Below the pieces are notes generated by a model, which saw only the letters and a list, made by a program, of their open reading frames with translations, was not told the DNA's origin and did no database searches. Below, piece after piece: positions 1 through 44,759 of a stretch of 44,789 nt of DNA. This DNA is from a phage. The position numbers and the translations under genes are program-made. Position 1 is the first letter of the stretch. Every line of letters starts with the position of its first letter. The stretch is from sequence record PZ379181.1; one strand, written 5' to 3'.

Positions 1-83
1 TGTTTAACCGCATAGTTCTGCATGATGGGTTAGGTTTTCGCATTTATCGTGAAACGCTTTCGCGTTTTTCGTGCGCCGCTTCA
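1..83. repeat. Left copy of 83-bp inverted repeat (partner 44677-44759)
   Basis: Reverse complement of 1-83 equals 44677-44759 at 82/83 positions (mismatch 7/44753); verified base by base. Confidence 0.9.
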
Positions 84-956: not shown

Positions 957-1014
957 TAACTATCTCTCTTTCGTTTAAGTGGGGCAATCATACCTCACCT
1001 TTTGATTTTGTCTT

Positions 1015-1029
1015 TAGCAATTAGTGCTA
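1015..1029 (-). promoter_or_regulatory. TAGCA-N5-TGCTA operator/promoter module (upstream of erf)
   Basis: TAGCAattagTGCTA; contains the exonuclease stop TAG; TATGAT and AAACGAAAGAGAG leader follow on minus strand. Confidence 0.5.
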
Positions 1030-1998
1030 TTTTAGAAGTTCTTGATACTGCTTACTTACCCACTCAGGAATCATCAAATCTTGCTCTGTAATCCCATTGC
1101 TATACCCAGGCCATACATCAAGCTCCTTGCACTGTTTGTATGTTGCTAGTGCCTCACAATATTGTAAACGACCAATGCGAAGCTGTTCATCTGTAAGCGT
1201 GTAGCTCATTGGTAAGTAAGGCTCCGTTTTTTCCTGCGCCAGAAGTCGAACCACAACCTTACGCTTCTCGTTAAATGCCTTCACGAACAAGTCACGCTGA
1301 AGGCTCATTTTGCACAGGTATCCATGGTCATAAGCTGACTTGCCAAATCCTCTCGGGCTTGCGTCCGCCGTCGTCTTGTAGTCAGTAATGAAAACCACGC
1401 CATCAACAACATCCACGTGATCAAGCCTAACCTTAACACCACACCCAAGAATCTCACCAAAGATTGATAGCTCTTTCTGTGCTGTTGGTGAGTTAATAAT
1501 CGCATCGTAAGCTGGGATATTAGTAAGAACCTCGCGCATTGAGATTACCTTATCGTAATCTTTCGCAGTAACGAGCTCTTTGCCACTAATTAACGCCTCA
1601 GCGCTCTCCTGCTGCTCAATTAACCATTTAACAGGCCAATCCTCACCAGATTTATACATCATCTCCACGAGCTCGCTATATCCCTTCCCTGACGTGCCTG
1701 AAACTCCAACTTTTTTAAGCGCTGCGGATAAAGCCGTTTGGCTAGTAATCAATCCTTCCACTTCGTCAAAGTCAGTAGCTCGCATGTATGTTGAGTCAAA
1801 TACCTCGCGCTCTAGCATCATGCAGTGACTTAGTGTGCCAAATTTAAGTGCTGCGCTAGAGTTATTGCGCTGCTTAAACTTCCATTTAGCTGGTGAGGTA
1901 GCAAGAATCTCAGCCAGTGAAGAGCCAGAGATATGGTCTTGCTCTTCGTGATAGGATTCATTTGTTAGCTCGTCGTTCGTATAAACTTTAAATGTCAT
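1027..1998 (-). CDS. Recombination exonuclease (PD-(D/E)XK-like)
   Basis: 323 aa; D..D...DYK nuclease-like motif (VRLDHVDVVDGVVFITDYKT); directly upstream of erf. Confidence 0.55.
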   Translation of the reverse strand: MTFKVYTNDELTNESYHEEQDHISGSSLAEILATSPAKWKFKQRNNSSAALKFGTLSHCMMLEREVFDSTYMRATDFDEVEGLITSQTALSAALKKVGVSGTSGKGYSELVEMMYKSGEDWPVKWLIEQQESAEALISGKELVTAKDYDKVISMREVLTNIPAYDAIINSPTAQKELSIFGEILGCGVKVRLDHVDVVDGVVFITDYKTTADASPRGFGKSAYDHGYLCKMSLQRDLFVKAFNEKRKVVVRLLAQEKTEPYLPMSYTLTDEQLRIGRLQYCEALATYKQCKELDVWPGYSNGITEQDLMIPEWVSKQYQELLK

Positions 1999-2196: not shown

Positions 2197-2510
2197 TTCT
2201 GTATCTCTCTGTTTGCTTGCTTGCTTGCTTTCGATGGTTTAACTATATATTCAGCGCCGCACCCAGTCCAATTGGTTTCGCCAATCGTTGATTTAAGTTT
2301 ACGCGTGAATTCTTGTAATTCCGTGTGTACATTGGAACTAGTTACGTTTTTTGGTACCTGAGCCAAGCTATAGCTCAATGTAAATAGTGCGTATATCATG
2401 TATATCATTTATTGCTGAGGGTGCATTGGTATAGCTACCGCGCAATACTGTATAAATCCACATGATATTAAAATTATAACCGAAACACTCCATAAGAGCA
2501 GTTACATGAT

Positions 2511-2590
2511 ATACATAGTAATATATATAATAATAATAATAAGAGTAAAAGGTTGATATATATATATATTTTAATGTAACCAATGCGTAA
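2511..2590. repeat. AT-rich block with (ATA)n tract, copy A
   Basis: About 85 percent identical to 30296-30373, same orientation; both lie in divergent intergenic regions. Confidence 0.8.
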
Positions 2591-2666
2591 ATTGGCGTAA
2601 CATTGCGTATATCATTTTTCGCGGATGAGATTGCATACATCGAGTTACATCGGTTACGCGTAAACA

Positions 2667-2681
2667 TAGCACTAATTGCTA
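2667..2681 (+). promoter_or_regulatory. TAGCA-N5-TGCTA operator/promoter module (upstream of methyltransferase gene)
   Basis: TAGCActaatTGCTA followed by TATAGT-like -10 and ACAAACAACGAGAGAG leader. Confidence 0.5.
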
Positions 2682-2740
2682 AAACTGATCCGCAAAACCG
2701 GGTATAGTTAGCAACACAAACAACGAGAGAGAATTTTAAA

Positions 2741-3430
2741 ATGGTTATCTGGTCTTTATTTGATGGTTCTGGTCTGGCGGTAAAGGATTGGGCTGAAGCT
2801 GGCCACACTTGCTACTGTTTCAACTTTGATGAGTCTGACCACGGCAGCTACAGTGACTTAAATGCAAAGGTTGAGCATGAGAACATCACATACGTTAACG
2901 CATGGATAGATGCTGACTTCGATTTTGATGTGAAACCTGATTTTATAATGGCGTTCCCTCCATGCACTGACTTAGCCGTGAGCGGATCAAGACACTTTGA
3001 ACGCAAGTGTATAGCTAACCCTAACTTCCAAATTGAAGCTGCGGAGACGTGCAAGATTGCTTTTAATCTTGCTGAAAAATACGGAGTACCATACATGATC
3101 GAGAACCCAATCAGCGTACTGTCATCACTTTGGCGAAAACCTGATAACACCTTCCACCCATATGAATACGGAGGCTATTTGCCGGAAGATGATTTACACC
3201 CGTTTTTTAGCGACCTAATAAAGCCAAAAGACGCATATCCCAAGAAGACATGCATTTGGTATGGCAATGGGTTTAAATGGCCAGAGGCAATTCCAGTGGA
3301 CGTTAACGGTGGATTCTCTGACCAATACAAGAAGCTAGGCGGGAAGAGCAATAAGACAAAGGTAATTCGCAGCCTAACTCCTCGCGGTTTTGCAAAAGCC
3401 GTCTTCATTGCAAATAGCACCAATTGCTAA
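2741..3430 (+). CDS. DNA methyltransferase (SAM-dependent; class uncertain)
   Basis: 229 aa; FDGSG (FxGxG SAM motif), then FPPC and ENP in the order seen in C5-MTase motifs I/IV/VI; could equally be a T1 Dam-like enzyme. Confidence 0.5.
   Translation: MVIWSLFDGSGLAVKDWAEAGHTCYCFNFDESDHGSYSDLNAKVEHENITYVNAWIDADFDFDVKPDFIMAFPPCTDLAVSGSRHFERKCIANPNFQIEAAETCKIAFNLAEKYGVPYMIENPISVLSSLWRKPDNTFHPYEYGGYLPEDDLHPFFSDLIKPKDAYPKKTCIWYGNGFKWPEAIPVDVNGGFSDQYKKLGGKSNKTKVIRSLTPRGFAKAVFIANSTNC
3415..3429 (+). promoter_or_regulatory. TAGCA-N5-TGCTA operator/promoter module (upstream of lipoprotein gene)
   Basis: TAGCAccaatTGCTA; its TAA is the stop codon of the methyltransferase ORF. Confidence 0.5.
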
Positions 3431-3498
3431 AGACAAATCTCAAGGATGAGATATCATTACTCCATTGAAACGAAACACACCTTCTAAGGAATACGAAA

Positions 3499-25774: not shown

Positions 25775-25850
25775 TGGTGTTCCGCACTGGACTCGAACCA
25801 GTAACTAAGACTTAGGAGGTCTTTGCGTTATCCTGTTACGCCAGCAGAAC
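25775..25850 (-). tRNA. tRNA-Arg (anticodon CCU)
   Basis: 76 nt folded by hand: 7-bp acceptor stem GTTCTGC/GCGGAAC, D arm GCGT/ACGC, anticodon loop CTCCTAA, T arm ACTGG-TTCGAGT-CCAGT, discriminator A, encoded CCA. Confidence 0.85.
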
Positions 25851-28139: not shown

Positions 28140-28198
28140 ATCTATACTCCATCTCGTTGTCGATGTGGTAATTATGCCGGATTTCTCCGGCAATTGTT

Positions 28199-28213
28199 TA
28201 GCAATTCATGCTA
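28199..28213 (-). promoter_or_regulatory. TAGCA-N5-TGCTA operator/promoter module (exemplar)
   Basis: In gene orientation: ATAGCATGAATTGCTAAAC, hairpin GCCGGAGAAATCCGGC, ATAATTA, CCACATCGACAACGAG, GGAG, ATG 28139. Confidence 0.55.
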
Positions 28214-28363
28214 TTCACCGATTTCATCACGAAGAACATAACACTCAACACCCCCTCCAAGAACGTCCAGCTGAGATTTTGCATCTTCGTAACACTCATA
28301 AGCCCGAATATGCTTAACGCTGTTGAATTTTCCCGTATAGTATGTGTGAACGTAATAAATCAT
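28211..28363 (-). CDS. hypothetical small protein (50 aa)
   Basis: Hand-translated; stop TAG inside operator; ATGA overlap upstream. Confidence 0.3.
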   Translation of the reverse strand: MIYYVHTYYTGKFNSVKHIRAYECYEDAKSQLDVLGGGVECYVLRDEIGE

Positions 28364-30036: not shown

Positions 30037-30295
30037 ATTCGTTACTCCTGATTGGTTGCTCTTCGTTAAGATGAAACCATGGTATCATGAATATACGCGT
30101 TATCAAGTGTTATGTTGTGTTTATATCTGCATTGGTTACGCTTTTTGACCTCTCAGCCCAGCTATAGCTGGTGTAATTACCCTGTGTAAGATTTTACGCG
30201 GATTCGCCGGGGGTATGCATATGTATCTATATAGATAAAATTAGTAGTTTTCATAGAAAAACTATCGACCCATCCATACGACCAATCTACACCAT

Positions 30296-30373
30296 ATACA
30301 TACATATATATAATAATAATAATAATATAGTAAAAGGTTGATATATATAGATATTATTATGTAACCATTGCGT
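30296..30373. repeat. AT-rich block with (ATA)n tract, copy B
   Basis: About 85 percent identical to 2511-2590. Confidence 0.8.
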
Positions 30374-30521
30374 AATCTAGCGTGGTAGGCGTGTATGATT
30401 CTTCGGAAGCGCACCTCATATACACACCATAACTTCGATAACGTGTATATCCAAATTGGCTCAGCAAGAATCAAAATCAACTTGTATGGTAGTCCATCCA
30501 CCATTCATTCACCCCACATCG

Positions 30522-30622
30522 ATCATTGCAAATTCTGCAACAATCAAAAACATCATTGCATTCGATGCAATATTGCTATATGTGCAATAATGAGATGAAT
30601 CATTGCAATAGCTGCAACAATC
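30522..30622. repeat. Iteron-like cluster of seven TGCAA/CATTGCA sites
   Basis: ATCATTGCA x3 and TGCAA(C/T)AAT(C/G) x4 within 100 bp, both orientations. Confidence 0.6.
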
Positions 30623-30637
30623 TATAAATCCAACGAA

Positions 30638-30652
30638 TAGCACTTTTTGCTA
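30638..30652 (+). promoter_or_regulatory. TAGCA-N5-TGCTA operator/promoter module (plus-strand operon)
   Basis: TAGCActtttTGCTA followed by TATGTATTCATCGAAACGG. Confidence 0.5.
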
Positions 30653-30883
30653 ATGCACAATCATTAGTAAGTTGCTACTATGTATTCATCGAAACGGTGC
30701 TGGACTCTGAGTCACTTCCGAAAGGAACCAAAAGAGTGAACGACACCGCGCAATGTGAGGAAGCGTTACCTTACCCACCAAAGCGCCTTGCGGGTCCTTT
30801 TGATAGGATGCCGGGCCGGGTTTAAAATCCCGAGTTGTAGTGAGTACGTTGAAGAGATTTCGATAACAAGAAAACATAGAGAG

Positions 30884-31637: not shown

Positions 31638-31801
31638 TGCTTTTACCATCTGATATAAACTATTTCGATCTGGAAATAATTAGTGCTTACAGCGGAAAGG
31701 GTTGGCCTTGCGGGGACTGGTTTAACGAGGACCTGCTTGAGTCTCACGAGATTATGTTGAAGGCAATTGAGAAGGCCAGAAAAAATAGCACTAATTGCTA
31801 A
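31637..31801 (+). CDS. hypothetical small protein (54 aa)
   Basis: Hand-translated; TAATG overlap upstream; stop TAA inside operator motif. Confidence 0.3.
   Translation: MLLPSDINYFDLEIISAYSGKGWPCGDWFNEDLLESHEIMLKAIEKARKNSTNC
31786..31800 (+). promoter_or_regulatory. TAGCA-N5-TGCTA operator/promoter module
   Basis: TAGCActaatTGCTA followed by GTATATTTACTCCATCGAAACGAAAGAGAG and ATG 31861. Confidence 0.5.
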
Positions 31802-31860
31802 AACTCACCGCCACGGATGGCGTATATTTACTCCATCGAAACGAAAGAGAGCAAGAGATC

Positions 31861-32580: not shown

Positions 32581-32638
32581 ATGCATTATAAGCGGCTATT
32601 GATATAATGGCCGCTCAGAAACAATGCGGAGAGAAGTA

Positions 32639-34222
32639 ATGTTTGATTTCAATGAAGATAAACTATCTGTTGAGCAAGTTATGGCGATCGCTGCCAATGA
32701 CAACCTACCACCGCTTCGCGTGGCTATTAATGCCAATGGCTATCGACAGTCTCAATCGTTCTGGAAAGCACCTGTCGAGATTGATACAGGTAATGATAAG
32801 TATCCAGTAATCTCACTCGGTAATGATATTGATGTTGTTGGTAAGCTATCGGCTAATATCGCTCGCTCGGTTCAGTTCCCTGAGTCGTCAGCTTACATGC
32901 ACTTTCTTGGTTGTGTTTCTGCTGCAATGCTTGGGCGTTTTACTGTCGAGTATCATGGAACCCAACAGCCAACATCTTTGTACGTGGTAACAAGTCAGCC
33001 GCCTTCAACTGGTAAATCAGCCATTAACTCGCTATCAATTGCGCCGATGATTGCTGAGACTGAGCGGTTGAATGAAGTACGTAAACGTGATCGAAAAAAG
33101 ATTATGGCTAAACTGTCCGCTCTGGCTAAAGAGATGAAGCAGGAGAAATCACCTTCTGAAATGGCTTCACTTTTTGAGGAGAAGGAGGATTTAGAGGAGA
33201 AGCTCGAGAAGCTATGCGATATAGTATTCCCTGTCTCCGATACTACTCCGGAAGGTCTTGCGCGAATCAACAATCGCCAGGGTAATTTTGCGGTAATCTC
33301 TGATGAGGCTACTAGCGTCAACTCACTGTTAGGCATGACTTACGGTGATGGCTCGAAGAAAACGAACAGCGAGCTCGTGCTGAAAGCATGGGATGCAGGT
33401 AATGTGTCAATTGCCCGTGCGAACGCAGAAAATAACATGAGCTTTGTGGCTATGGGATGCATCTCCGTAATTGCTCAGGATGAAACAATCAATGCCATTA
33501 TGAATGCTGGTGCGCGTGGTATTGGTGTATCTGAGCGTTTCCTTCTGGTGCGTGAAAAATCATTTCTTGGCGACCGTGTATTTGTTGATGAAAATGGTGA
33601 TTCAACCTATGAGGCTATTGATGGCGGCCTGAAAGCAGACTATTTCCGTCTTGTTCATGAGATTATGAATGAAGTTGAAGTGAAACTTACTGTAAGCGCG
33701 TCATCAATGCGTTACCTTAACCGCGCTCGTCAAGAGATGGAGCCTCATCTTGGTGATGGTGGCAAGTATTCTCACACAATGTTGCGCGGTGCTCTTGGTA
33801 AGTTTGATAAGCAAGCAATCCGCATCGCTTCTGTTCTGCACGTAATTCGTAACTGGTTCTCACCAGCCGGATCCAGCCCTCAAAAGTCAAGAGAGATTGA
33901 ACTGGATACAATGCAGGAAGCGGTTATGATTTTCAACGAACTAAGCAAGACTTATTTATCATCCGCTAGTGCTGCTGGTCATGCTGGTGACAATGCCGAG
34001 ATGAACAAGCTGGTTGATATCCTGATTAAGCAGGGCAAGAATGGTAAAGGTGTTGTTGGTGTTCGCTCGTTGTATGAGGCTGCACGCAAGGTTAAACCTT
34101 TTGAAGCTCAGGCTGGAATTATGACTCGCATTAAGGACCACTTGATTCCTATGCTTGATGAGAAAAACTACACATGCCTGATTGGTGATAAAATTTACAT
34201 TAATCCACGATTGCTGGGGTAA
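32639..34222 (+). CDS. Putative replication-associated P-loop protein
   Basis: Start at ATG 32639; 527 aa; Walker-A-like SQPPSTGKS; sits in replication region. Confidence 0.4.
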   Translation: MFDFNEDKLSVEQVMAIAANDNLPPLRVAINANGYRQSQSFWKAPVEIDTGNDKYPVISLGNDIDVVGKLSANIARSVQFPESSAYMHFLGCVSAAMLGRFTVEYHGTQQPTSLYVVTSQPPSTGKSAINSLSIAPMIAETERLNEVRKRDRKKIMAKLSALAKEMKQEKSPSEMASLFEEKEDLEEKLEKLCDIVFPVSDTTPEGLARINNRQGNFAVISDEATSVNSLLGMTYGDGSKKTNSELVLKAWDAGNVSIARANAENNMSFVAMGCISVIAQDETINAIMNAGARGIGVSERFLLVREKSFLGDRVFVDENGDSTYEAIDGGLKADYFRLVHEIMNEVEVKLTVSASSMRYLNRARQEMEPHLGDGGKYSHTMLRGALGKFDKQAIRIASVLHVIRNWFSPAGSSPQKSREIELDTMQEAVMIFNELSKTYLSSASAAGHAGDNAEMNKLVDILIKQGKNGKGVVGVRSLYEAARKVKPFEAQAGIMTRIKDHLIPMLDEKNYTCLIGDKIYINPRLLG

Positions 34223-35956: not shown

Positions 35957-36014
35957 TTTTGAATCCTCTGTTGTTTTCGATGTAGTAATTATGCCGGATT
36001 ACTCCGGCGATTGT

Positions 36015-36568
36015 TTAGCAATTCGTGCTATTTATTACGTGCATTACCAAAGCAGAGGTTCCATCAATATCACCATCTACAACATGAACGTCAATTTCTC
36101 TTGCGCAGACACCGCGAATGTAGGAGCGGCTATCTCCATCAAAAGTATAGCCAGGCCTAAAAAGTCTAATCAAAGTAACTTCAACCCCTGAATCAATGAG
36201 AGTATTAATCTCGCTAGCGAAGCCACCATCAGCACAGATATAGCAACCATCACCAAGTGATTGCGCTAGCCTTTTACCGAAAACATCATCACCAAAGACT
36301 GGCTTCATAACTGACTCACTAATCCAAATCATAAATTCACGAACCGTCATTCCACCAAGAAATTCATGTGGTGATTCTTTGTACTCTCGGTCATCGTAAT
36401 TCTTAATAAATTCATCAAACTCATCGCTTGATAGTATTCCTTTTGCAACATTAAACATTGGTGACTTGAATGAAACCTTATCCTTGCAAATTCCAAGATT
36501 AACAATGATATCTGCAACTGTATCTTTTCCAGCACCAGGGGTGCATTAAGGATGATTAACTTTTTCAT
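36015..36568 (-). CDS. dNMP kinase-like P-loop kinase, frameshifted
   Basis: N-terminus MKKLIILNAP; P-loop PGAGKDT and the rest of the protein are in the -1 frame after a 4-nt run (plus-strand GGGG 36538-36541); resembles T4 gp1 dNMP kinase. Confidence 0.55.
36016..36030 (-). promoter_or_regulatory. TAGCA-N5-TGCTA operator/promoter module
   Basis: TAGCAattcgTGCTA; contains the kinase stop codon; hairpin GCCGGAGTAATCCGGC and CATAAT at +23. Confidence 0.55.
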
Positions 36569-39371: not shown

Positions 39372-39437
39372 TTTCTTTCTCTCTTTGTGTGTTTCGTTTC
39401 GATGAGTTGATAATACACCAACTCACCAATTCGTCTT

Positions 39438-39452
39438 TAGCAATTCGTGCTA
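39438..39452 (-). promoter_or_regulatory. TAGCA-N5-TGCTA operator/promoter module
   Basis: TAGCAattcgTGCTA; contains the VRR-NUC gene stop codon. Confidence 0.5.
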
Positions 39453-39869
39453 TTTTCTTATCATCTCTGCGAATGCCGCAAGAAAACCCTCTCTTCCATA
39501 AGCCACCGCTGCGAAACCGCCTGATTCCCTTACGCTTTTTAGGAATGACTTTTGCTCATTGCTAACTGGGCTTGCTTGCGTTTTACCAGCCCTCTTTAAC
39601 TCTATGGCGCCAAATGGATAACCGCCACGCAATGACTCAGGTATCAGAAATAAGCAGTCTGACACACCTTTGAGAAGCCCCTTGGCTTGGTCTTTTCTTG
39701 CTTGACCAATGCTCTTTTTATTTTCGTTAATCGTGTGCCAGTAAACAATCTGCGGATAGTTGTATTTCACCCAATCAGAGCAGAAGATTTGTTCATCGTC
39801 TTCCTTTGGGCATGACTTCACCGGTCCGCCATAGAACTCGAGGTAATCACCTTTGTCTGTGATTTTCAT
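39450..39869 (-). CDS. VRR-NUC domain nuclease
   Basis: 139 aa; GVSDCLFLIP...GAIELKRAG matches the PD-(D/E)XK VRR-NUC pattern; directly downstream of helicase. Confidence 0.6.
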   Translation of the reverse strand: MKITDKGDYLEFYGGPVKSCPKEDDEQIFCSDWVKYNYPQIVYWHTINENKKSIGQARKDQAKGLLKGVSDCLFLIPESLRGGYPFGAIELKRAGKTQASPVSNEQKSFLKSVRESGGFAAVAYGREGFLAAFAEMIRK

Positions 39870-41865: not shown

Positions 41866-41933
41866 TTTAAATATCCCGACATTTTGTTAGTTCGTTGCAT
41901 TGCTGTATAATAACAACTATCGACCCTATTGTT

Positions 41934-41948
41934 TAACAAAAAATGCTA
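41934..41948 (-). promoter_or_regulatory. Operator/promoter module (TAACA variant) between divergent helicase and HTH genes
   Basis: TAACAaaaaaTGCTA, 14 nt upstream of the HTH gene ATG and upstream of helicase gene. Confidence 0.45.
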
Positions 41949-41961
41949 TTGAGGTAATGAG

Positions 41962-42435
41962 ATGTGTGAAATTGACAAGCGAACTATCAACGGCAATAAC
42001 GGAACCATCCGCACGCAAGACAAGAAACAGCGCAAACGACCGTCAGGCTACTACGTATTGAAAGATGAAGTAAAGGCTGGGCTAAGAGCTCGTCTGGAGA
42101 TGGTTCTTGACTTCTACGGCACGAAGGCCAATATCGCCAAGCAGTTAAATGTATCTCACCAGACTGTAGAACAATGGTTTGATCGCGGTATGATTTCGGC
42201 TCGAGGCGCCCAGCGAGCACATAATGCGTACAAGAGAAATAAGGGAGGGTTCCGAGCTACTTTCTGCCGACCAGACCTGCAATTTGACGGTAACGGTAAG
42301 CCTCTGACGCTTAGATGCAAGAAGCGCCACATGCTACGCGTGGTTACTGAGGCTGAACTAGCAACAAAGCCACCTTGTCGACCGTGGCGCAAGAATAAGA
42401 TTGCCAACGAAGCCGCACGAAAAGCTAAAGAGTAA
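41962..42435 (+). CDS. HTH DNA-binding protein (Cro/YdaS-like), candidate regulator
   Basis: 157 aa; TKANIAKQLNVSHQTVEQWFDRG helix-turn-helix; basic C-terminus. Confidence 0.55.
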   Translation: MCEIDKRTINGNNGTIRTQDKKQRKRPSGYYVLKDEVKAGLRARLEMVLDFYGTKANIAKQLNVSHQTVEQWFDRGMISARGAQRAHNAYKRNKGGFRATFCRPDLQFDGNGKPLTLRCKKRHMLRVVTEAELATKPPCRPWRKNKIANEAARKAKE

Positions 42436-42486: not shown

Positions 42487-42966
42487 ATGAACTGGCATGA
42501 TTATTTTTACTATGTAGATGGCAAATTGCATTGGAAGATTAGCACTGCAAGACGTGTTAAGGTTGGCGATGAGTGCAACTCACTATCTACATCTGGCTAT
42601 TACAAAGTGTCTGTTAATGGCTTTAGGACTTATGTACATAGAGTTGTGTGGGAGATGTTTAATGGAGAACTTCAAAATGGCGACTACATTGATCATATAA
42701 ACCATAACAAATTAGATAACAGAATAGAAAACCTAAGAGTAACAACAAATCAAGGTAACTCAAGAAATTGCAAGCTTAGCGTTTTATCAACAACTGGTTA
42801 TTGTGGAGTGGCAAAGCTAAATCACGGAAAATTTAAGGCTCACATCAAGGTTGACGGCAAGCAGCTACACCTTGGGAACTTCGATACTCCAGAGCGGGCG
42901 TATAAAGTAAGAATTGAAGCAGAGGGAAAATACAACTTTCACGAAAATCACGGGTTAAGCAAATGA
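42487..42966 (+). CDS. HNH homing endonuclease with AP2-type domain
   Basis: YVHRVVW...IDHINHNKLDNRIENLR; GGAGAG RBS; ATGA overlap with primase start. Confidence 0.8.
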   Translation: MNWHDYFYYVDGKLHWKISTARRVKVGDECNSLSTSGYYKVSVNGFRTYVHRVVWEMFNGELQNGDYIDHINHNKLDNRIENLRVTTNQGNSRNCKLSVLSTTGYCGVAKLNHGKFKAHIKVDGKQLHLGNFDTPERAYKVRIEAEGKYNFHENHGLSK

Positions 42967-43886
42967 ATTACGATAAGAATGAAGTTATACCTAAGATGGC
43001 CGGATTGTGGAAATCATTTTATGCAAAGGAACTTGGTTGGAATGATAGACACCTAAGTAAGAAGCACGGACCATGCCCATACTGCTTTGGCACTGACAGA
43101 TTCAGATTTACCGACGAAATAGGCAGTGAAAAAGGAAATGGCGCGGCAGTTTGTTCGAAATGCGGAAGTGACTCCGGTATAGGATGGGTCATGAAGTGCA
43201 CTGGATTGTCCTTCGCTGATTCAGTAAATTTGCTTGGTGACTGGCTGAACTTAATACCAATTGAGGTTATAGTTAAAGCAAACAAGCAAGCATCAAGAAC
43301 GCAGCGTTATAAAATTTGCGCTCAAGTAGACCACAAGAAAGTTCTTGAGGTCATGGAGAGGACTCAGCGAGTTGAATCTAGTCCACTCACGACATACGAG
43401 GGTATTTATGACGAGTTTGGTTTTGATGTTGGTATAGCTAAAAATTGTTCAATGATTCACGCAATCCCTTGTTCGATGGTTTATGAAGATGGGCTTAGTG
43501 ATGAGTTCTGTAACGTAATGTTTATTGATGAGGATTCAAATGTTAAGTTCCTTGCTGGTGATTACACTCGTGATTCTGTTTCCGTTATTGGTTCTAAGCT
43601 GGATGATAGTTATACTTATGTTGTTGACAATTATATTGATGGCATACGTGTTCACCTTGCTACTGGTGGGCGCGAAGTGTTTGTTGCTTTCTCCTGTTAC
43701 AATATGGAGATGGTTATCCACCGCGACAAGTCAAGGAAGTTCAGAATTGCTTGCCGTGATTCTGATAGCGATATACTCGCTGTTGCTGACGATAGGGGTG
43801 TTGATGTTGTAGTTCCTAATGACGGTGAGTCATTTAAAACAGGCATACGAAAGAAAGTGTACAAAGCAAACGACTTGCTAAACTAA
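42963..43886 (+). CDS. DNA primase (zinc-ribbon type)
   Basis: 307 aa; CPYCFGTDRFRF...CSKCG zinc-binding motif near N-terminus; next to helicase region. Confidence 0.6.
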   Translation: MNYDKNEVIPKMAGLWKSFYAKELGWNDRHLSKKHGPCPYCFGTDRFRFTDEIGSEKGNGAAVCSKCGSDSGIGWVMKCTGLSFADSVNLLGDWLNLIPIEVIVKANKQASRTQRYKICAQVDHKKVLEVMERTQRVESSPLTTYEGIYDEFGFDVGIAKNCSMIHAIPCSMVYEDGLSDEFCNVMFIDEDSNVKFLAGDYTRDSVSVIGSKLDDSYTYVVDNYIDGIRVHLATGGREVFVAFSCYNMEMVIHRDKSRKFRIACRDSDSDILAVADDRGVDVVVPNDGESFKTGIRKKVYKANDLLN

Positions 43887-43971: not shown

Positions 43972-44679
43972 ATGGCAATTTATGACTTAGGAACAGCATC
44001 ACTAGCCTCAAATGGCGAGGTTACTGGCGTAGGTACTACATGGAAAGCACCTCTTACACTGATTCGTGTAGGTGCTACTATCATTTTCAAAACCAGCCCT
44101 CTGAAAATTTACACCATCTCTGAAATCATCAGCGATACTCAGGTTAATGTTTATAATCCAAGTTCTGAAACTGTTCCCGCTGGTACTGGTTACGCAATTC
44201 TTGCTCATGATGGAATTACTGTTCAGGGGTTGGCGCAGGATGTTGCGGAAACATTGCGTTACTACCAGTCAAAAGAGACTTCTATTGAAAGTCTACTGCA
44301 ATTTATCGGGCAAGATACTTTCGATTGGCCTCGCTTCGAGCAGCTTGCAACCCAATCAACCACTGGGGCTGCTGAGGCGCTAGCTAGTCAGATCGCTGCC
44401 GCTGAAAGTGCGAGTGCAGCCGCCTCAGCAAGAGACGCTACGACAGAGGCACGCGATGCTACTATTAGCGCAATTAATAATGCTGGTGACGCCGGAACAT
44501 TAGCAACGCTTGCATCTTACAATATAGCAAACTCAGTAGCAATTAGAGCTACCTCATTTGATTGGCAAACTTACGCATTTAAAAACGGCTCAAAAGTTTT
44601 AGTGTCAAAGTCAGCAATGGTAAACACTCCTTCTAGTGTAAATGACCTTATATCAAGTGCCGGTGCTAGTAAAAGCTGA
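43972..44679 (+). CDS. Tail fibre protein, N-terminal part only (235 aa)
   Basis: Ala/Ser-rich fibre-like N-terminal region; stop codon TGA 44677-44679 is the first 3 nt of the inverted repeat. Confidence 0.5.
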   Translation: MAIYDLGTASLASNGEVTGVGTTWKAPLTLIRVGATIIFKTSPLKIYTISEIISDTQVNVYNPSSETVPAGTGYAILAHDGITVQGLAQDVAETLRYYQSKETSIESLLQFIGQDTFDWPRFEQLATQSTTGAAEALASQIAAAESASAAASARDATTEARDATISAINNAGDAGTLATLASYNIANSVAIRATSFDWQTYAFKNGSKVLVSKSAMVNTPSSVNDLISSAGASKS

Positions 44680-44759
44680 AGCGGCGCACGAAAAACGCGA
44701 AAGCGTTTCACGATAAATGCGAAAACCTAACCCATCATGCAGAACTATGCGGCTAAACA
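44677..44759. repeat. Right copy of 83-bp inverted repeat (partner 1-83)
   Basis: See left copy; 30 nt of unique sequence (44760-44789) follows. Confidence 0.9.

What the first reader, a model, noticed from the sequence alone, without database searches (positions are those of the whole stretch)
2511..2590. Duplicated AT-rich block in both divergent control regions
An 80-bp block containing an (ATA)n tract and GTAAAAGGTTGATATATAT is present at 2511-2590 and, about 85 percent identical, at 30296-30373. Both sit in the only two large divergent intergenic regions (2197-2740 and 30037-30883), which also share a CAGCTATAGCT palindrome. They are candidate DNA-unwinding elements of replication origins or early promoter/enhancer regions.
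Basis: seen in the sequence. Interest (0 to 1): 0.45.

Follow-up and report, generated by a model that had tools for sequence, protein, structure and literature searches.

The report
Paired candidate replication origins, T1-like phage
The duplicated AT-rich block is real and conserved across T1-like phages, and it most likely marks two replication origins, which would give a testable location for the still-unmapped origin of this phage family.

Summary
Window 2511-2590 and 30296-30373 are 85.4% identical. The similarity extends over 2489-2621 / 30273-30405, plus a second collinear segment.

The window is an Rtp-like Drexlerviridae phage. The two blocks are the two least stable duplex stretches of its genome (z about 5.4). 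The same holds at the same two syntenic loci in Rtp, T145P1, ES, T1 and TLS.

The copies group by locus, not by genome, so the duplication is old and both copies are kept by selection. Each AT core is flanked by short repeats at about 10-nt spacing, such as GCGT[A/G] x3 and a GTTACAT/ATGTAAC inverted pair. T1 and TLS carry their own lineage-specific equivalents, largely confined to the two loci.

The phage's DUF3987 "helicase" models as an MCM-like AAA+ ATPase with a C-terminal winged helix, the architecture of the self-loading SaPI/SCCmec initiator helicases. Four distant phages with this helicase carry a microsatellite-like AT-rich tract within about 0.6 kb of the gene; three have significantly enriched flanking repeats, the fourth was judged by eye.

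Best reading: two iteron-plus-unwinding-element origins, or an origin plus a partner site. No σ70 promoter, coding, RNA or pac signal explains the block. Function is inferred, not shown.

The parts
2489..2621 (.). Copy 1 of the shared block (paralogous to 30273-30405).
   Evidence: 80% identity over 136 columns, E 7e-26. Nearly invariant in 21 distinct relatives.
30273..30405 (.). Copy 2 of the shared block.
   Evidence: The core 30290-30365 is conserved in 16 distinct relatives while its flanks vary.
2500..2579 (.). AT-rich core of copy 1: (TA)n, (ATA)5, the AAAGGTT box, then (AT)7. Candidate DNA-unwinding element.
   Evidence: About 90% AT. 80-nt nearest-neighbour dG is -77.3 kcal/mol against a genome mean of -107.8, z 5.4. 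It ranks in the top two of the genome.
30284..30363 (.). AT-rich core of copy 2. Candidate DNA-unwinding element.
   Evidence: dG -77.2, z 5.4, least stable window of the genome.
2546..2558 (-). TATCAACCTTTTA, a match to the IHF core consensus WATCAANNNNTTR, lying inside the invariant 'AAAGGTTGATA' box.
   Evidence: Most substitutions among relatives fall in the NNNN positions. The consensus is degenerate in P818 and absent from the T1 and TLS blocks.
30331..30343 (-). The same 13-mer in copy 2.
2585..2609 (+). Three GCGTA repeats starting at 2585, 2595 and 2605 (10-nt spacing). Iteron-like.
   Evidence: GCGTAA is enriched in the two regions (8 of 31 copies, p 3e-6). The triple is retained in P818 and in divergent copy-2 flanks.
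30370..30393 (+). Three GCGT[A/G] repeats starting at 30370, 30380 and 30389.
2501..2507 (.). GTTACAT, the left arm of a 7-nt inverted pair bracketing the AT core. The right arm is ATGTAAC at 2574-2580.
   Evidence: All 4 ATGTAAC/GTTACAT copies in the window lie in the two intergenic regions (p 9e-7).
2574..2580 (.). ATGTAAC, the right arm of the inverted pair. Copy 2 has the equivalent at 30359-30365.
2420..2683 (.). Full extent of the strongly conserved non-coding module at locus 1.
   Evidence: Per-column conservation across 21 sequences. This region is 85-89% identical in relatives whose left 20 kb is about 75-76% identical.
2300..2375 (.). Second, weaker collinear paralogous segment (matches 30094-30169). 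Ends in the palindrome AGCTATAGCT (2366-2375).
30094..30169 (.). Partner of the second segment, with the palindrome at 30160-30169.
32624..34222 (+). DUF3987 'helicase' gene, the candidate initiator helicase: MCM-like AAA+ domain plus C-terminal winged helix (about aa 456-531).
42963..43886 (+). Primase with a zinc ribbon. Part of the phage replication machinery (context).
30520..30622 (.). TGCAA/TTGCA repeat cluster, found only at locus 2. It lies where the Rtp and T1 records start (the T1 pac end). It is context, not part of the duplicated block.
2666..2682 (+). Known 21-nt family repeat (ATAGCAC-N5-TGCTAA) of the rightward promoter region. It marks the right limit of module 1. Locus 2 has one at 30637-30653.

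Best explanation
The two blocks are cis-acting replication origins, or an origin plus a partner site, of a T1-like phage.

Each has a central, very easily melted AT tract: (TA)n, (ATA)n, an AAAGGTT box, then (TA)n. Short repeats spaced about one helical turn apart flank it.

Proposed mechanism, in inferred steps:
1. The phage's MCM-like DUF3987 helicase recognises the flanking repeats through its C-terminal winged helix.
2. It assembles on both sides of the AT tract, melts it and loads itself.
3. The phage primase and the host polymerase take over.
4. A host bending protein such as IHF may assist in the Rtp-like phages.

Shown here: the duplication, the extreme duplex instability, the family-wide conservation at two syntenic loci, the repeat enrichment, the helicase fold, and the association of similar AT-rich tracts with this helicase in distant phages.

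Inferred: binding, melting and origin firing, and whether both copies fire.
For: 1. Duplex stability. The blocks are the two least stable 80-nt windows of the genome (z 5.4; the next is 3.9). The same two syntenic loci hold the top two windows in Rtp, T145P1, ES, T1 (z 6.3 and 5.5) and TLS (5.2 and 5.1), even where the primary sequence has diverged.

2. Sequence conservation.
- The core is essentially invariant in more than 30 distinct copies from Braunvirinae, Rogunavirinae (Sd1) and metagenomes. A recognisable but more diverged version is present in Nouzillyvirus P818.
- Locus 1 is more conserved than the neighbouring coding DNA.

3. Age of the duplication. Copies cluster by locus: copy1-copy1 identity is 92.5%, while copy1-copy2 is 70.3% within a genome and 70.0% between genomes. 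This indicates old paralogues kept by selection rather than by gene conversion.

4. Iteron-like repeats.
- GCGT[A/G] x3 at 10-nt spacing sits beside the AT core in both copies.
- A GTTACAT/ATGTAAC inverted pair brackets the core of copy 1; copy 2 keeps only the right arm.
- ATGTAAC is 4 of 4 in the two regions. T1 TGTAACA is 6 of 6 (p 2e-10). TLS GTGAACA is 4 of 8, oriented away from the AT tract at both loci.

5. Candidate initiator. The DUF3987 protein models as an MCM-like AAA+ domain plus a C-terminal winged helix. That is the architecture of SaPI and SCCmec self-loading initiator helicases. Their origins are an AT-rich centre with 5-6-nt iterons on each side in opposite orientation (PMC9371898).

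6. Distant relatives. In four phages with 36-39% identical helicases, the least stable window of the locus lies within about 0.6 kb of the helicase gene and is a microsatellite-like AT tract.
- L081: flanked by CGCCCACG, 7 of 7 copies in that region, p 1e-11.
- L080: flanked by CTTACA, 10 of 21, p 3e-11.
- L083: the tract lies directly downstream of the gene, as in SaPIs, flanked by ACCCCAG-type repeats judged by eye.
- L084: an (ATA)n tract with CTTACA-type repeats, judged by eye and cut by the locus end.

7. Precedent. SPP1 has two similar origins, each made of direct repeats plus an AT-rich unwinding element (PMC6316719).
Against: - No experimental datum on origin activity exists for any T1-like phage. 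Two papers report that no origin was found, but they searched mainly for oriC-like or lambda-like signatures.
- The blocks are not adjacent to the helicase gene in this family. Copy 2 lies about 2.2 kb upstream and copy 1 about 14.7 kb away around the circular genome.
- The repeats are short and heterogeneous (GCGTA, TGTAAC, TATACA), so no single clean iteron can be defined. In copy 2 the left arm of the inverted pair is degenerate.
- AT-rich islands also mark transcriptional control regions in phages; the SPP1 genome paper notes this. Both blocks lie between promoters.
- The winged helix is more divergent than the AAA+ core (0.54 vs 0.68 mean column identity), but co-variation with the repeat type could not be shown.
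- GC skew follows gene orientation and is uninformative.
Confidence: 0.5

Rival explanations
1. Architectural upstream element of the early promoters. The curved, AT-rich block with an IHF site binds host nucleoid proteins (IHF, Fis, H-NS) and tunes the promoters on either side. Phage Mu has this arrangement between Pe and Pc, and lambda has it upstream of pL (both from established knowledge).
For: - Both copies lie between outward-facing promoters.
- An exact WATCAANNNNTTR match with an AT-rich 5' arm occurs in both copies.
- Most substitutions in the 13-mer fall in the four N positions.
- The leftward genes next to both regions lack the 21-nt family repeat and have σ70-like promoters, so they are plausibly early.
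Against: - The block lies roughly 150-330 nt from the candidate promoters, too far for an UP element.
- The IHF consensus is degenerate in P818 (TAATAACCATTTA), altered in Rtp and IME253 copy 2, and absent from the T1 and TLS blocks.
- The TLS locus-1 block and the L083 block are not in divergent regions.
- This reading does not explain the phased repeats or the association with the helicase gene in distant phages.
Confidence: 0.2
2. Paired operator regions. The repeats are binding sites for a phage regulator, for example the Cro/MerR-like HTH protein encoded at 41962-42435. That protein would switch off the two early transcription units, as lambda OL/OR do for Cro and CI.
For: - There are two paralogous control regions carrying repeated short motifs found almost only there.
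- The phage encodes an HTH regulator (PHROG 'transcriptional regulator', weak P22_Cro match).
Against: - The repeats do not overlap convincing -35/-10 hexamers.
- An operator needs no extreme AT tract, yet the instability itself is what is conserved from T1 to TLS.
- Distant phages place the equivalent tract next to the helicase gene, once downstream of it.
Confidence: 0.12
3. Packaging or recombination accessory site, for example a bend site that helps terminase at pac, as IHF does at lambda cos and P1 pac (established knowledge).
For: - Copy 2 lies about 200 nt from the TGCAA repeat cluster where the T1 record starts. That start is the beginning of the annotated 2.8-kb terminal repeat.
- The Rtp record starts at the same place.
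Against: - Copy 1 has no TGCAA cluster (ATTGCA: 1 copy against 6) and no known packaging role.
- The terminase genes are far from both copies.
- The distant phages associate the tract with replication genes, not with terminase.
Confidence: 0.08
4. No specific function: low-complexity AT-rich spacer DNA kept at module junctions by recombination between mosaic phages.
For: - The flanks of copy 2 fall into at least two unrelated types joined at the conserved core.
- The gene to the right of locus 1 differs between phages.
Against: - About 45 nt are nearly invariant in more than 30 distinct copies, while neighbouring coding DNA is about 75% identical.
- The two paralogues are conserved independently.
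- The architecture persists across subfamilies.
Confidence: 0.03

Closest known systems
SaPI / SCCmec replication origins with self-loading Rep helicases (SaPIbov1 Rep/Rep2 and Cch are MCM-like, SF6)
   Same: - AT-rich centre flanked by 5-6-nt repeats on both sides in opposite orientation (PMC9371898).
- Initiator helicase with an AAA+ motor and a C-terminal winged helix.
- A separate primase.
   Different: - This is a virulent phage, not a satellite or island.
- The element is present twice and is not adjacent to the helicase gene.
- The repeats are heterogeneous.
- No sequence-level relationship to SaPI Rep was found.
- Binding has not been tested.
Bacillus phage SPP1 oriL / oriR
   Same: - Also a pac-type siphovirus.
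- Two similar origins kilobases apart, each made of direct repeats plus an AT-rich unwinding element. One of them lies in a long intergenic region (PMC6316719).
   Different: - The SPP1 initiator is gp38, working with a DnaB-type helicase and a loader. No such proteins are recognised here.
- oriL lies inside a gene.
- There is no sequence similarity.
Satellite phage P4 ori / crr with the alpha primase-helicase (from established knowledge, not tested here)
   Same: - Two distant cis sites sharing the same iterons.
- The initiator is a helicase with a C-terminal winged-helix origin-binding domain.
- The T1 primase is annotated as similar to P4-family alpha proteins.
   Different: - P4 alpha is a single SF3 polypeptide. 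Here the primase and an MCM-like helicase are separate genes.
- Whether both sites are required is unknown.
IHF-binding sites within origins and control regions (oriC, pSC101, Mu Pe/Pc; established knowledge)
   Same: Exact WATCAANNNNTTR match with an AT-rich 5' arm in both copies.
   Different: The consensus is not kept across the family. Distant phages keep an 'RGGTT' box that does not fit the IHF consensus.

Membership tests
Iteron-plus-DUE origin of a self-loading initiator helicase (SaPI type) | Central AT-rich, easily melted region. | tested here: met
   About 90% AT. The blocks are the two least stable 80-nt windows of the genome (z 5.4). The same holds in five other family genomes.
Iteron-plus-DUE origin of a self-loading initiator helicase (SaPI type) | [quoted passage not shown] | tested here: inconclusive
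   Right side: three phased GCGT[A/G] repeats plus TGTAAC. Left side: GTTACAT, inverted relative to ATGTAAC, plus TATACA. Copy 2's left arm is degenerate, and no single motif accounts for all repeats. In TLS, GTGAAC points outward on both sides at both loci.
Iteron-plus-DUE origin of a self-loading initiator helicase (SaPI type) | Element encodes a helicase with a sequence-reading C-terminal winged helix. | tested here: met
Iteron-plus-DUE origin of a self-loading initiator helicase (SaPI type) | Origin lies immediately next to the rep gene. | tested here: not met
   In the window, copy 2 ends about 2.2 kb upstream of the helicase gene and copy 1 is about 14.7 kb away on the circle. The feature is met in distant relatives L080, L081, L083 and L084, where the tract is within about 0.6 kb.
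Iteron-plus-DUE origin of a self-loading initiator helicase (SaPI type) | Specific binding, melting and initiator-dependent replication. | not testable with these tools
   Needs EMSA or footprinting, KMnO4 probing and plasmid replication assays.
Dual origins of SPP1 type | Two similarly organised copies (direct repeats plus an AT-rich DUE) in one genome. | tested here: met
Dual origins of SPP1 type | Bound by a gp38-like origin-binding protein that recruits a loader and a DnaB-type helicase. | tested here: not met
   No such families were found among the replication-module proteins scanned.
IHF-binding site | Match to WATCAANNNNTTR with an AT-rich 5' arm. | tested here: met
   2546-2558 and 30331-30343 on the minus strand. 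There are 5 matches genome-wide against 2.9 expected, so the count alone is not significant.
IHF-binding site | Consensus positions conserved in homologous elements. | tested here: inconclusive
   Within close relatives, changes fall mostly in NNNN. The consensus is broken in P818, Rtp copy 2 and IME253 copy 2, and is absent from the T1 and TLS blocks.
Sigma-70 promoter | -35 and -10 hexamers at a fixed 16-18-nt spacing, conserved in both copies. | tested here: not met
   Promoter-like hits do not exceed shuffles (4 vs 3.1 and 4 vs 4.5). The in-block candidates differ between copies, and their spacer is the length-variable (ATA)n tract.
pac site | Coincides with the packaging-initiation end and terminase-binding repeats. 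| tested here: not met
   The T1 and Rtp record starts fall in the TGCAA cluster about 200 nt away. Copy 1 has no such cluster.
Protein-coding or RNA gene | Conserved reading frame, or a match to or structure of a known RNA. | tested here: not met
   Only junk ORFs cross the block. Indels of 1, 2 and 5 nt occur in (ATA)n between relatives. No Rfam match was found, even at E<=1.

The most novel reading that the evidence does not exclude
Drexlerviridae, together with a wider and largely unstudied set of phages that encode the DUF3987 protein, share one replicon type.

In this type an MCM-like, winged-helix-bearing helicase loads itself at an origin. The origin's unwinding element is a trinucleotide or dinucleotide microsatellite, such as (ATA)n, (AAC)n, (TAG)n or (TA)n, carrying a conserved RGGTT box and flanked by lineage-specific iterons.

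In T1-like phages this origin has been duplicated, and both copies have been kept since before the subfamilies split. That would imply a two-site mechanism: either two firing origins, or an origin plus an enhancer or fork-arrest site that controls the switch to concatemer synthesis.
Probability: 0.35. Interest if true: 0.6.

Novelty: new member of a known kind. Interest (0 to 1): 0.5.

Why it matters
T1 is one of the original T-phages. T1-like phages are common laboratory and fermentation contaminants and are candidates for phage therapy. Their origin of replication has never been located, and recent genome papers state that none was found.

This analysis gives two precise candidate sites of about 130-265 bp, plus a candidate initiator, the MCM-like DUF3987 helicase. 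Simple experiments can test both. If confirmed:
- The replication mechanism of a whole phage family would be assigned.
- The SaPI-type self-loading-helicase origin would be extended to virulent Gram-negative phages.
- A recognisable signature for annotating origins in many metagenomic phages would become available.

Tried and rejected
- **Coding.** The only ORFs across the block translate to low-complexity junk, and (ATA)n length changes by 1, 2 and 5 nt among relatives.
- **The 71-aa ORF at 2193-2408.** It has no ribosome-binding site, and its paralogous segment in the second region is non-coding. It was not pursued further.
- **RNA gene.** Nothing at Rfam gathering thresholds. At E<=1 there was only an insignificant sRNA hit outside the block.
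- **σ70 promoters inside the block.** Not above the shuffle expectation and not conserved between copies.
- **DnaA boxes.** By eye, the best candidate (AAATCCACA near 2456) is 7 of 9 and varies in relatives.
- **GATC clustering.** One site per region.
- **GC skew.** It tracks gene orientation and gives no independent origin signal.
- **Gene conversion between copies.** Rejected.
- **pac function for the block itself.** Rejected, because the pac-end repeats are a separate cluster found only at locus 2.
- **Co-variation of the helicase winged helix with repeat type.** Inconclusive.
- **Literature.** The Rtp genome paper could not be read. Searches for T1-family origin or TSS data found nothing relevant.
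- **IMG/VR.** Only the same isolates were found.

Full report
**Identity of the window**

The window is essentially a whole genome of an Rtp-like coliphage (Drexlerviridae, Braunvirinae). Its closest records are Escherichia phages ES and AN_ECEAS. Rtp, Veterinaerplatzvirus and many others match at about 75-90%.

From the ORF layout and family scans, the two regions have these neighbours:
- 2197-2740 lies between the leftward exonuclease VIII / Erf operon and a rightward methyltransferase-like gene.
- 30037-30883 lies between the two outward-facing arms of small early genes.

The only other divergent gap is 96 nt long (41866-41961).

**Observation**

- The similarity is broader than reported. 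It runs over 2489-2621 vs 30273-30405 (80% of 136 columns, E 7e-26). A second collinear segment, 2300-2375 vs 30094-30169 (68%), sits at almost the same spacing.
- The local alignment score is 84, against 14.6 +/- 2.4 when composition is shuffled within 40-nt blocks. AT-richness alone does not produce the match.
- The 19-mer AGTAAAAGGTTGATATATA occurs only at these two places.
- The shared palindrome is AGCTATAGCT, exact only at 2366 and 30160. It is poorly conserved in relatives.

**Physical property**

The blocks are the two most AT-rich 60-nt windows, at 90% against 80% or less elsewhere. They are also the two least stable 80-nt duplex windows by nearest-neighbour energy: -77 kcal/mol against a mean of -107.8, z 5.4, with the third-ranked window at z 3.9.

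**Conservation**

| Genome | z of the two least stable windows | Where they lie |
|---|---|---|
| Window | 5.4, 5.4 | upstream of the exonuclease VIII operon; early-gene region |
| Rtp, T145P1, ES | 4.6-5.7 | same two syntenic loci |
| T1 (Tunavirinae) | 6.3, 5.5 | same two syntenic loci |
| TLS (Tempevirinae) | 5.2, 5.1 | same two syntenic loci |

One locus is upstream of the exonuclease VIII operon. The other is about 200 nt from the conventional genome start, in the region between the early-gene arms. In T1 this second block lies inside the annotated 2.8-kb terminal repeat.

At the sequence level:
- A core of about 45 nt, (ATA)n-N-AGTAAAAGGTTGATATATATAGATATT, is nearly invariant. It appears in more than 30 distinct copies from isolates and metagenomes, including Rogunavirinae (Sd1). 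Nouzillyvirus (P818) carries a recognisable but more diverged version.
- At locus 1 the conserved non-coding module spans 2420-2683. It is 85-89% identical in phages whose left 20 kb is about 75-76% identical.
- At locus 2 only the core (30290-30365) and a separate TGCAA-repeat cluster (about 30475-30625) are conserved. The flanks come in at least two unrelated versions.
- Copies group by locus, not by genome. Copy1-copy1 identity is 92.5%. Copy1-copy2 identity is 70.3% within a genome and 70.0% between genomes. The duplication therefore predates these phages, and each copy is maintained by selection rather than by gene conversion.

**Fine structure**

- To the right of the AT core, both copies carry ATGTAAC followed by three GCGT[A/G] repeats spaced 10 nt apart (2585, 2595, 2605; 30370, 30380, 30389).
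- To the left, copy 1 carries GTTACAT, inverted relative to ATGTAAC, and TATACA.
- Further TTACA and TTACGCGTAA motifs follow at about 10-nt spacing.

Enrichment in the two regions:

| Genome | Motif | Copies in the two regions / genome total | p |
|---|---|---|---|
| Window | ATGTAAC | 4 / 4 | 9e-7 |
| Window | GCGTAA | 8 / 31 | 3e-6 |
| T1 | TGTAACA | 6 / 6 | 2e-10 |
| TLS | GTGAACA | 4 / 8 | 2e-5 |

T1 also has two tandem GGCGTAATTT units abutting the AT tract. In TLS the GTGAACA copies point away from the AT tract on both sides at both loci, with tandem CGTGAACA units.

The layout is therefore an AT centre with short, phased, lineage-specific repeats on both sides. That is the layout of an iteron-type origin.

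**IHF**

TATCAACCTTTTA, on the minus strand in both copies, fits WATCAANNNNTTR and has an AT-rich 5' arm. Among close relatives most substitutions fall in the four N positions.

Against a general role: the genome-wide count (5 vs 2.9 expected) is not significant. The consensus is broken in P818 and in Rtp and IME253 copy 2. It is absent from the T1 and TLS blocks. IHF help is therefore plausible for Rtp-like phages, but it is not the defining feature.

**Readings that do not fit**

- *σ70 promoter inside the block.* Promoter-like hits do not exceed shuffles. They differ between copies. The only in-block candidates use the length-variable (ATA)n tract as spacer.
- *Coding sequence.* Only junk ORFs cross the block, and relatives carry frame-breaking indels.
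- *Known RNA.* No match was found.
- *pac site.* The Rtp and T1 record starts fall in the TGCAA cluster about 200 nt away, which copy 1 lacks.
- *GC skew as evidence.* It simply follows gene orientation.

The real promoters appear to sit at the edges of the regions:
- Leftward σ70-like sites lie at 2270-2242 and 30106-30079.
- Rightward promoters are associated with the known 21-nt family repeat, at 2666-2682 and 30637-30653.
- A further rightward σ70-like site lies at 30800-30828.

**Candidate trans-acting factor**

The phage encodes a zinc-ribbon primase, a DEAD/SNF2-type helicase, a Cro/MerR-like HTH protein and a 532-aa DUF3987 'helicase'.

SaPI Rep proteins, one class of which is MCM-like, are self-loading initiator helicases. 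Their C-terminal winged helix reads 5-6-nt iterons placed on both sides of an AT-rich centre in opposite orientation (PMC9371898).

The winged helix is the most divergent part of the family: 0.54 mean column identity, against 0.68 for the AAA+ core. That is compatible with changing specificity, but co-variation with repeat type could not be established.

**Independent comparative test**

Four phage contigs encode helicases only 36-39% identical to the window's. In each one, the least stable window of the fetched locus lies within about 0.6 kb of the helicase gene and is a microsatellite-like AT tract.

| Locus | Position relative to the helicase gene | AT tract | Flanking repeats |
|---|---|---|---|
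| L081 | divergent region upstream of the operon | (TA)n + (AAT)n, z 4.9 | CGCCCACG in both orientations, 7 of 7 in the locus, p 1e-11 |
| L080 | region directly upstream of the DUF3987-primase-helicase-exonuclease operon | (AAC)n, z 3.0 | CTTACA/TGTAAG, 10 of 21, p 3e-11 |
| L083 | region immediately downstream of the gene, as in SaPIs; not divergent | (TAG)n + (TA)n, z 4.9 | ACCCCAG/CTGGGGT-type repeats, judged by eye |
| L084 | about 600 nt upstream, cut by the locus end | (TAA)n, z 3.7 | CTTACA-type repeats, judged by eye |

Three of the four also have an RGGTT box next to the TA tract: AAGGGTT in L080 and L081, and GATGGTT in L084. This recalls the window's AAAGGTTGATA.

The association is therefore with the helicase, not with divergent transcription. 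The TLS locus-1 block is also in a non-divergent region.

**Interpretation**

The best-supported reading is that the two blocks are replication origins of the iteron-plus-unwinding-element type, or one origin and a partner site, served by the MCM-like helicase.

Precedents for two similar sites are:
- P4 ori/crr (from established knowledge, not tested here)

Confidence is about 0.5. All functional steps are inferred, the repeats are heterogeneous, and AT-rich islands between promoters can also be transcriptional architecture. The rivals are:
- an IHF/nucleoid-protein upstream element (0.2)
- operators for the phage HTH regulator (0.12)
- a packaging or recombination accessory site (0.08)
- functionless junction DNA (0.03)

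**Novelty**

Two recent papers on T1-like genomes state that no origin could be found. They discuss only the 21-nt repeats (PMC11447400, PMC7718038). I found no description of these paired blocks in the searchable literature. The original T1 and Rtp genome papers could not be read, so an earlier mention cannot be excluded.

The kind of element is known. This would be a new, unannotated member in a classical phage family.

Noticed in passing
window 1-83 and 44677-44759: The two ends of the window are inverted copies of each other (98.8%). Bases 34-83 are 100% identical to the last 50 bp of phage Mu (right end). Both ends are therefore mini-Mu transposon ends abutting phage DNA. They sit between the SSB side and a truncated tail-fibre gene, and about 2.4 kb present in phage ES is missing. 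This looks like an artificial transposon insertion or an assembly artefact, not phage biology.
   Followed up: partly
about 15 sites, e.g. window 1013-1033(-), 2666-2682, 3412-3431, 28188-28216(-), 30637-30653, 31783-31802, 36005-36033(-), 39427-39455(-): This is the known 21-nt T1-family repeat (aaATAGCAC-N5-TGCTAAaa, itself a TAGCA/TGCTA palindrome). It is followed about 22 nt later by a -10-like hexamer and a conserved leader, CCATCGAAACGAAAGAGAG. The intervening spacer often forms a hairpin whose sequence differs between sites. The spacing is too long for the repeat's TTGCTA to serve as a -35, which suggests activator-dependent promoters. The TLS paper lists the function as an open question.
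   Followed up: partly
window 30520-30622: A dense cluster of TGCAA/TTGCA-type repeats (ATCATTGCAA, CTGCAACAATC and similar) is strongly conserved in relatives. It coincides with where the Rtp and T1 GenBank records begin; for T1 that is the start of the terminal repeat. It is a candidate pac / small-terminase recognition region.
   Followed up: partly
window 30683-30883: About 200 nt lie between the repeat-type promoter (-10-like TACTAT at 30676-30681) and the first rightward start codon (30884). The stretch contains GC-rich inverted repeats and a second σ70-like promoter (30800-30828). It may be a structured leader or a small unannotated gene. There is no Rfam match.
   Followed up: no
window 2741-3430: The gene to the right of locus 1 is a 229-aa DNA methyltransferase-like protein (PHROG 757). 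In Rtp, ES and T1 this position holds a Cor-like lipoprotein gene. Many relatives stop aligning at about 2663-2683, so the conserved module ends at a mosaic junction.
   Followed up: partly
window 42487-42966: An HNH endonuclease gene sits between the HTH regulator gene and the primase gene. Rtp has no gene at this position.
   Followed up: no
window 25775-25850 (-): tRNA-Arg (anticodon CCT), as reported for related phages.
   Followed up: no
L018 (phage ES, OR466728.1): Product names in this record look shifted or misassigned. For example, the exonuclease VIII homologue is labelled 'capsid maturation protease' and small early genes are labelled 'DNA helicase'. The names should not be used for annotation transfer.
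   Followed up: no
L080 9390-9425; L083 11375-11390; L084 1-30: Distant DUF3987-helicase phages carry perfect trinucleotide microsatellites, (AAC)12, (TAG)4 and (TAA)9, inside their AT-rich tracts beside the helicase gene. This parallels the (ATA)5 of the window, and length-variable microsatellites may be a feature of this replicon type.
   Followed up: partly
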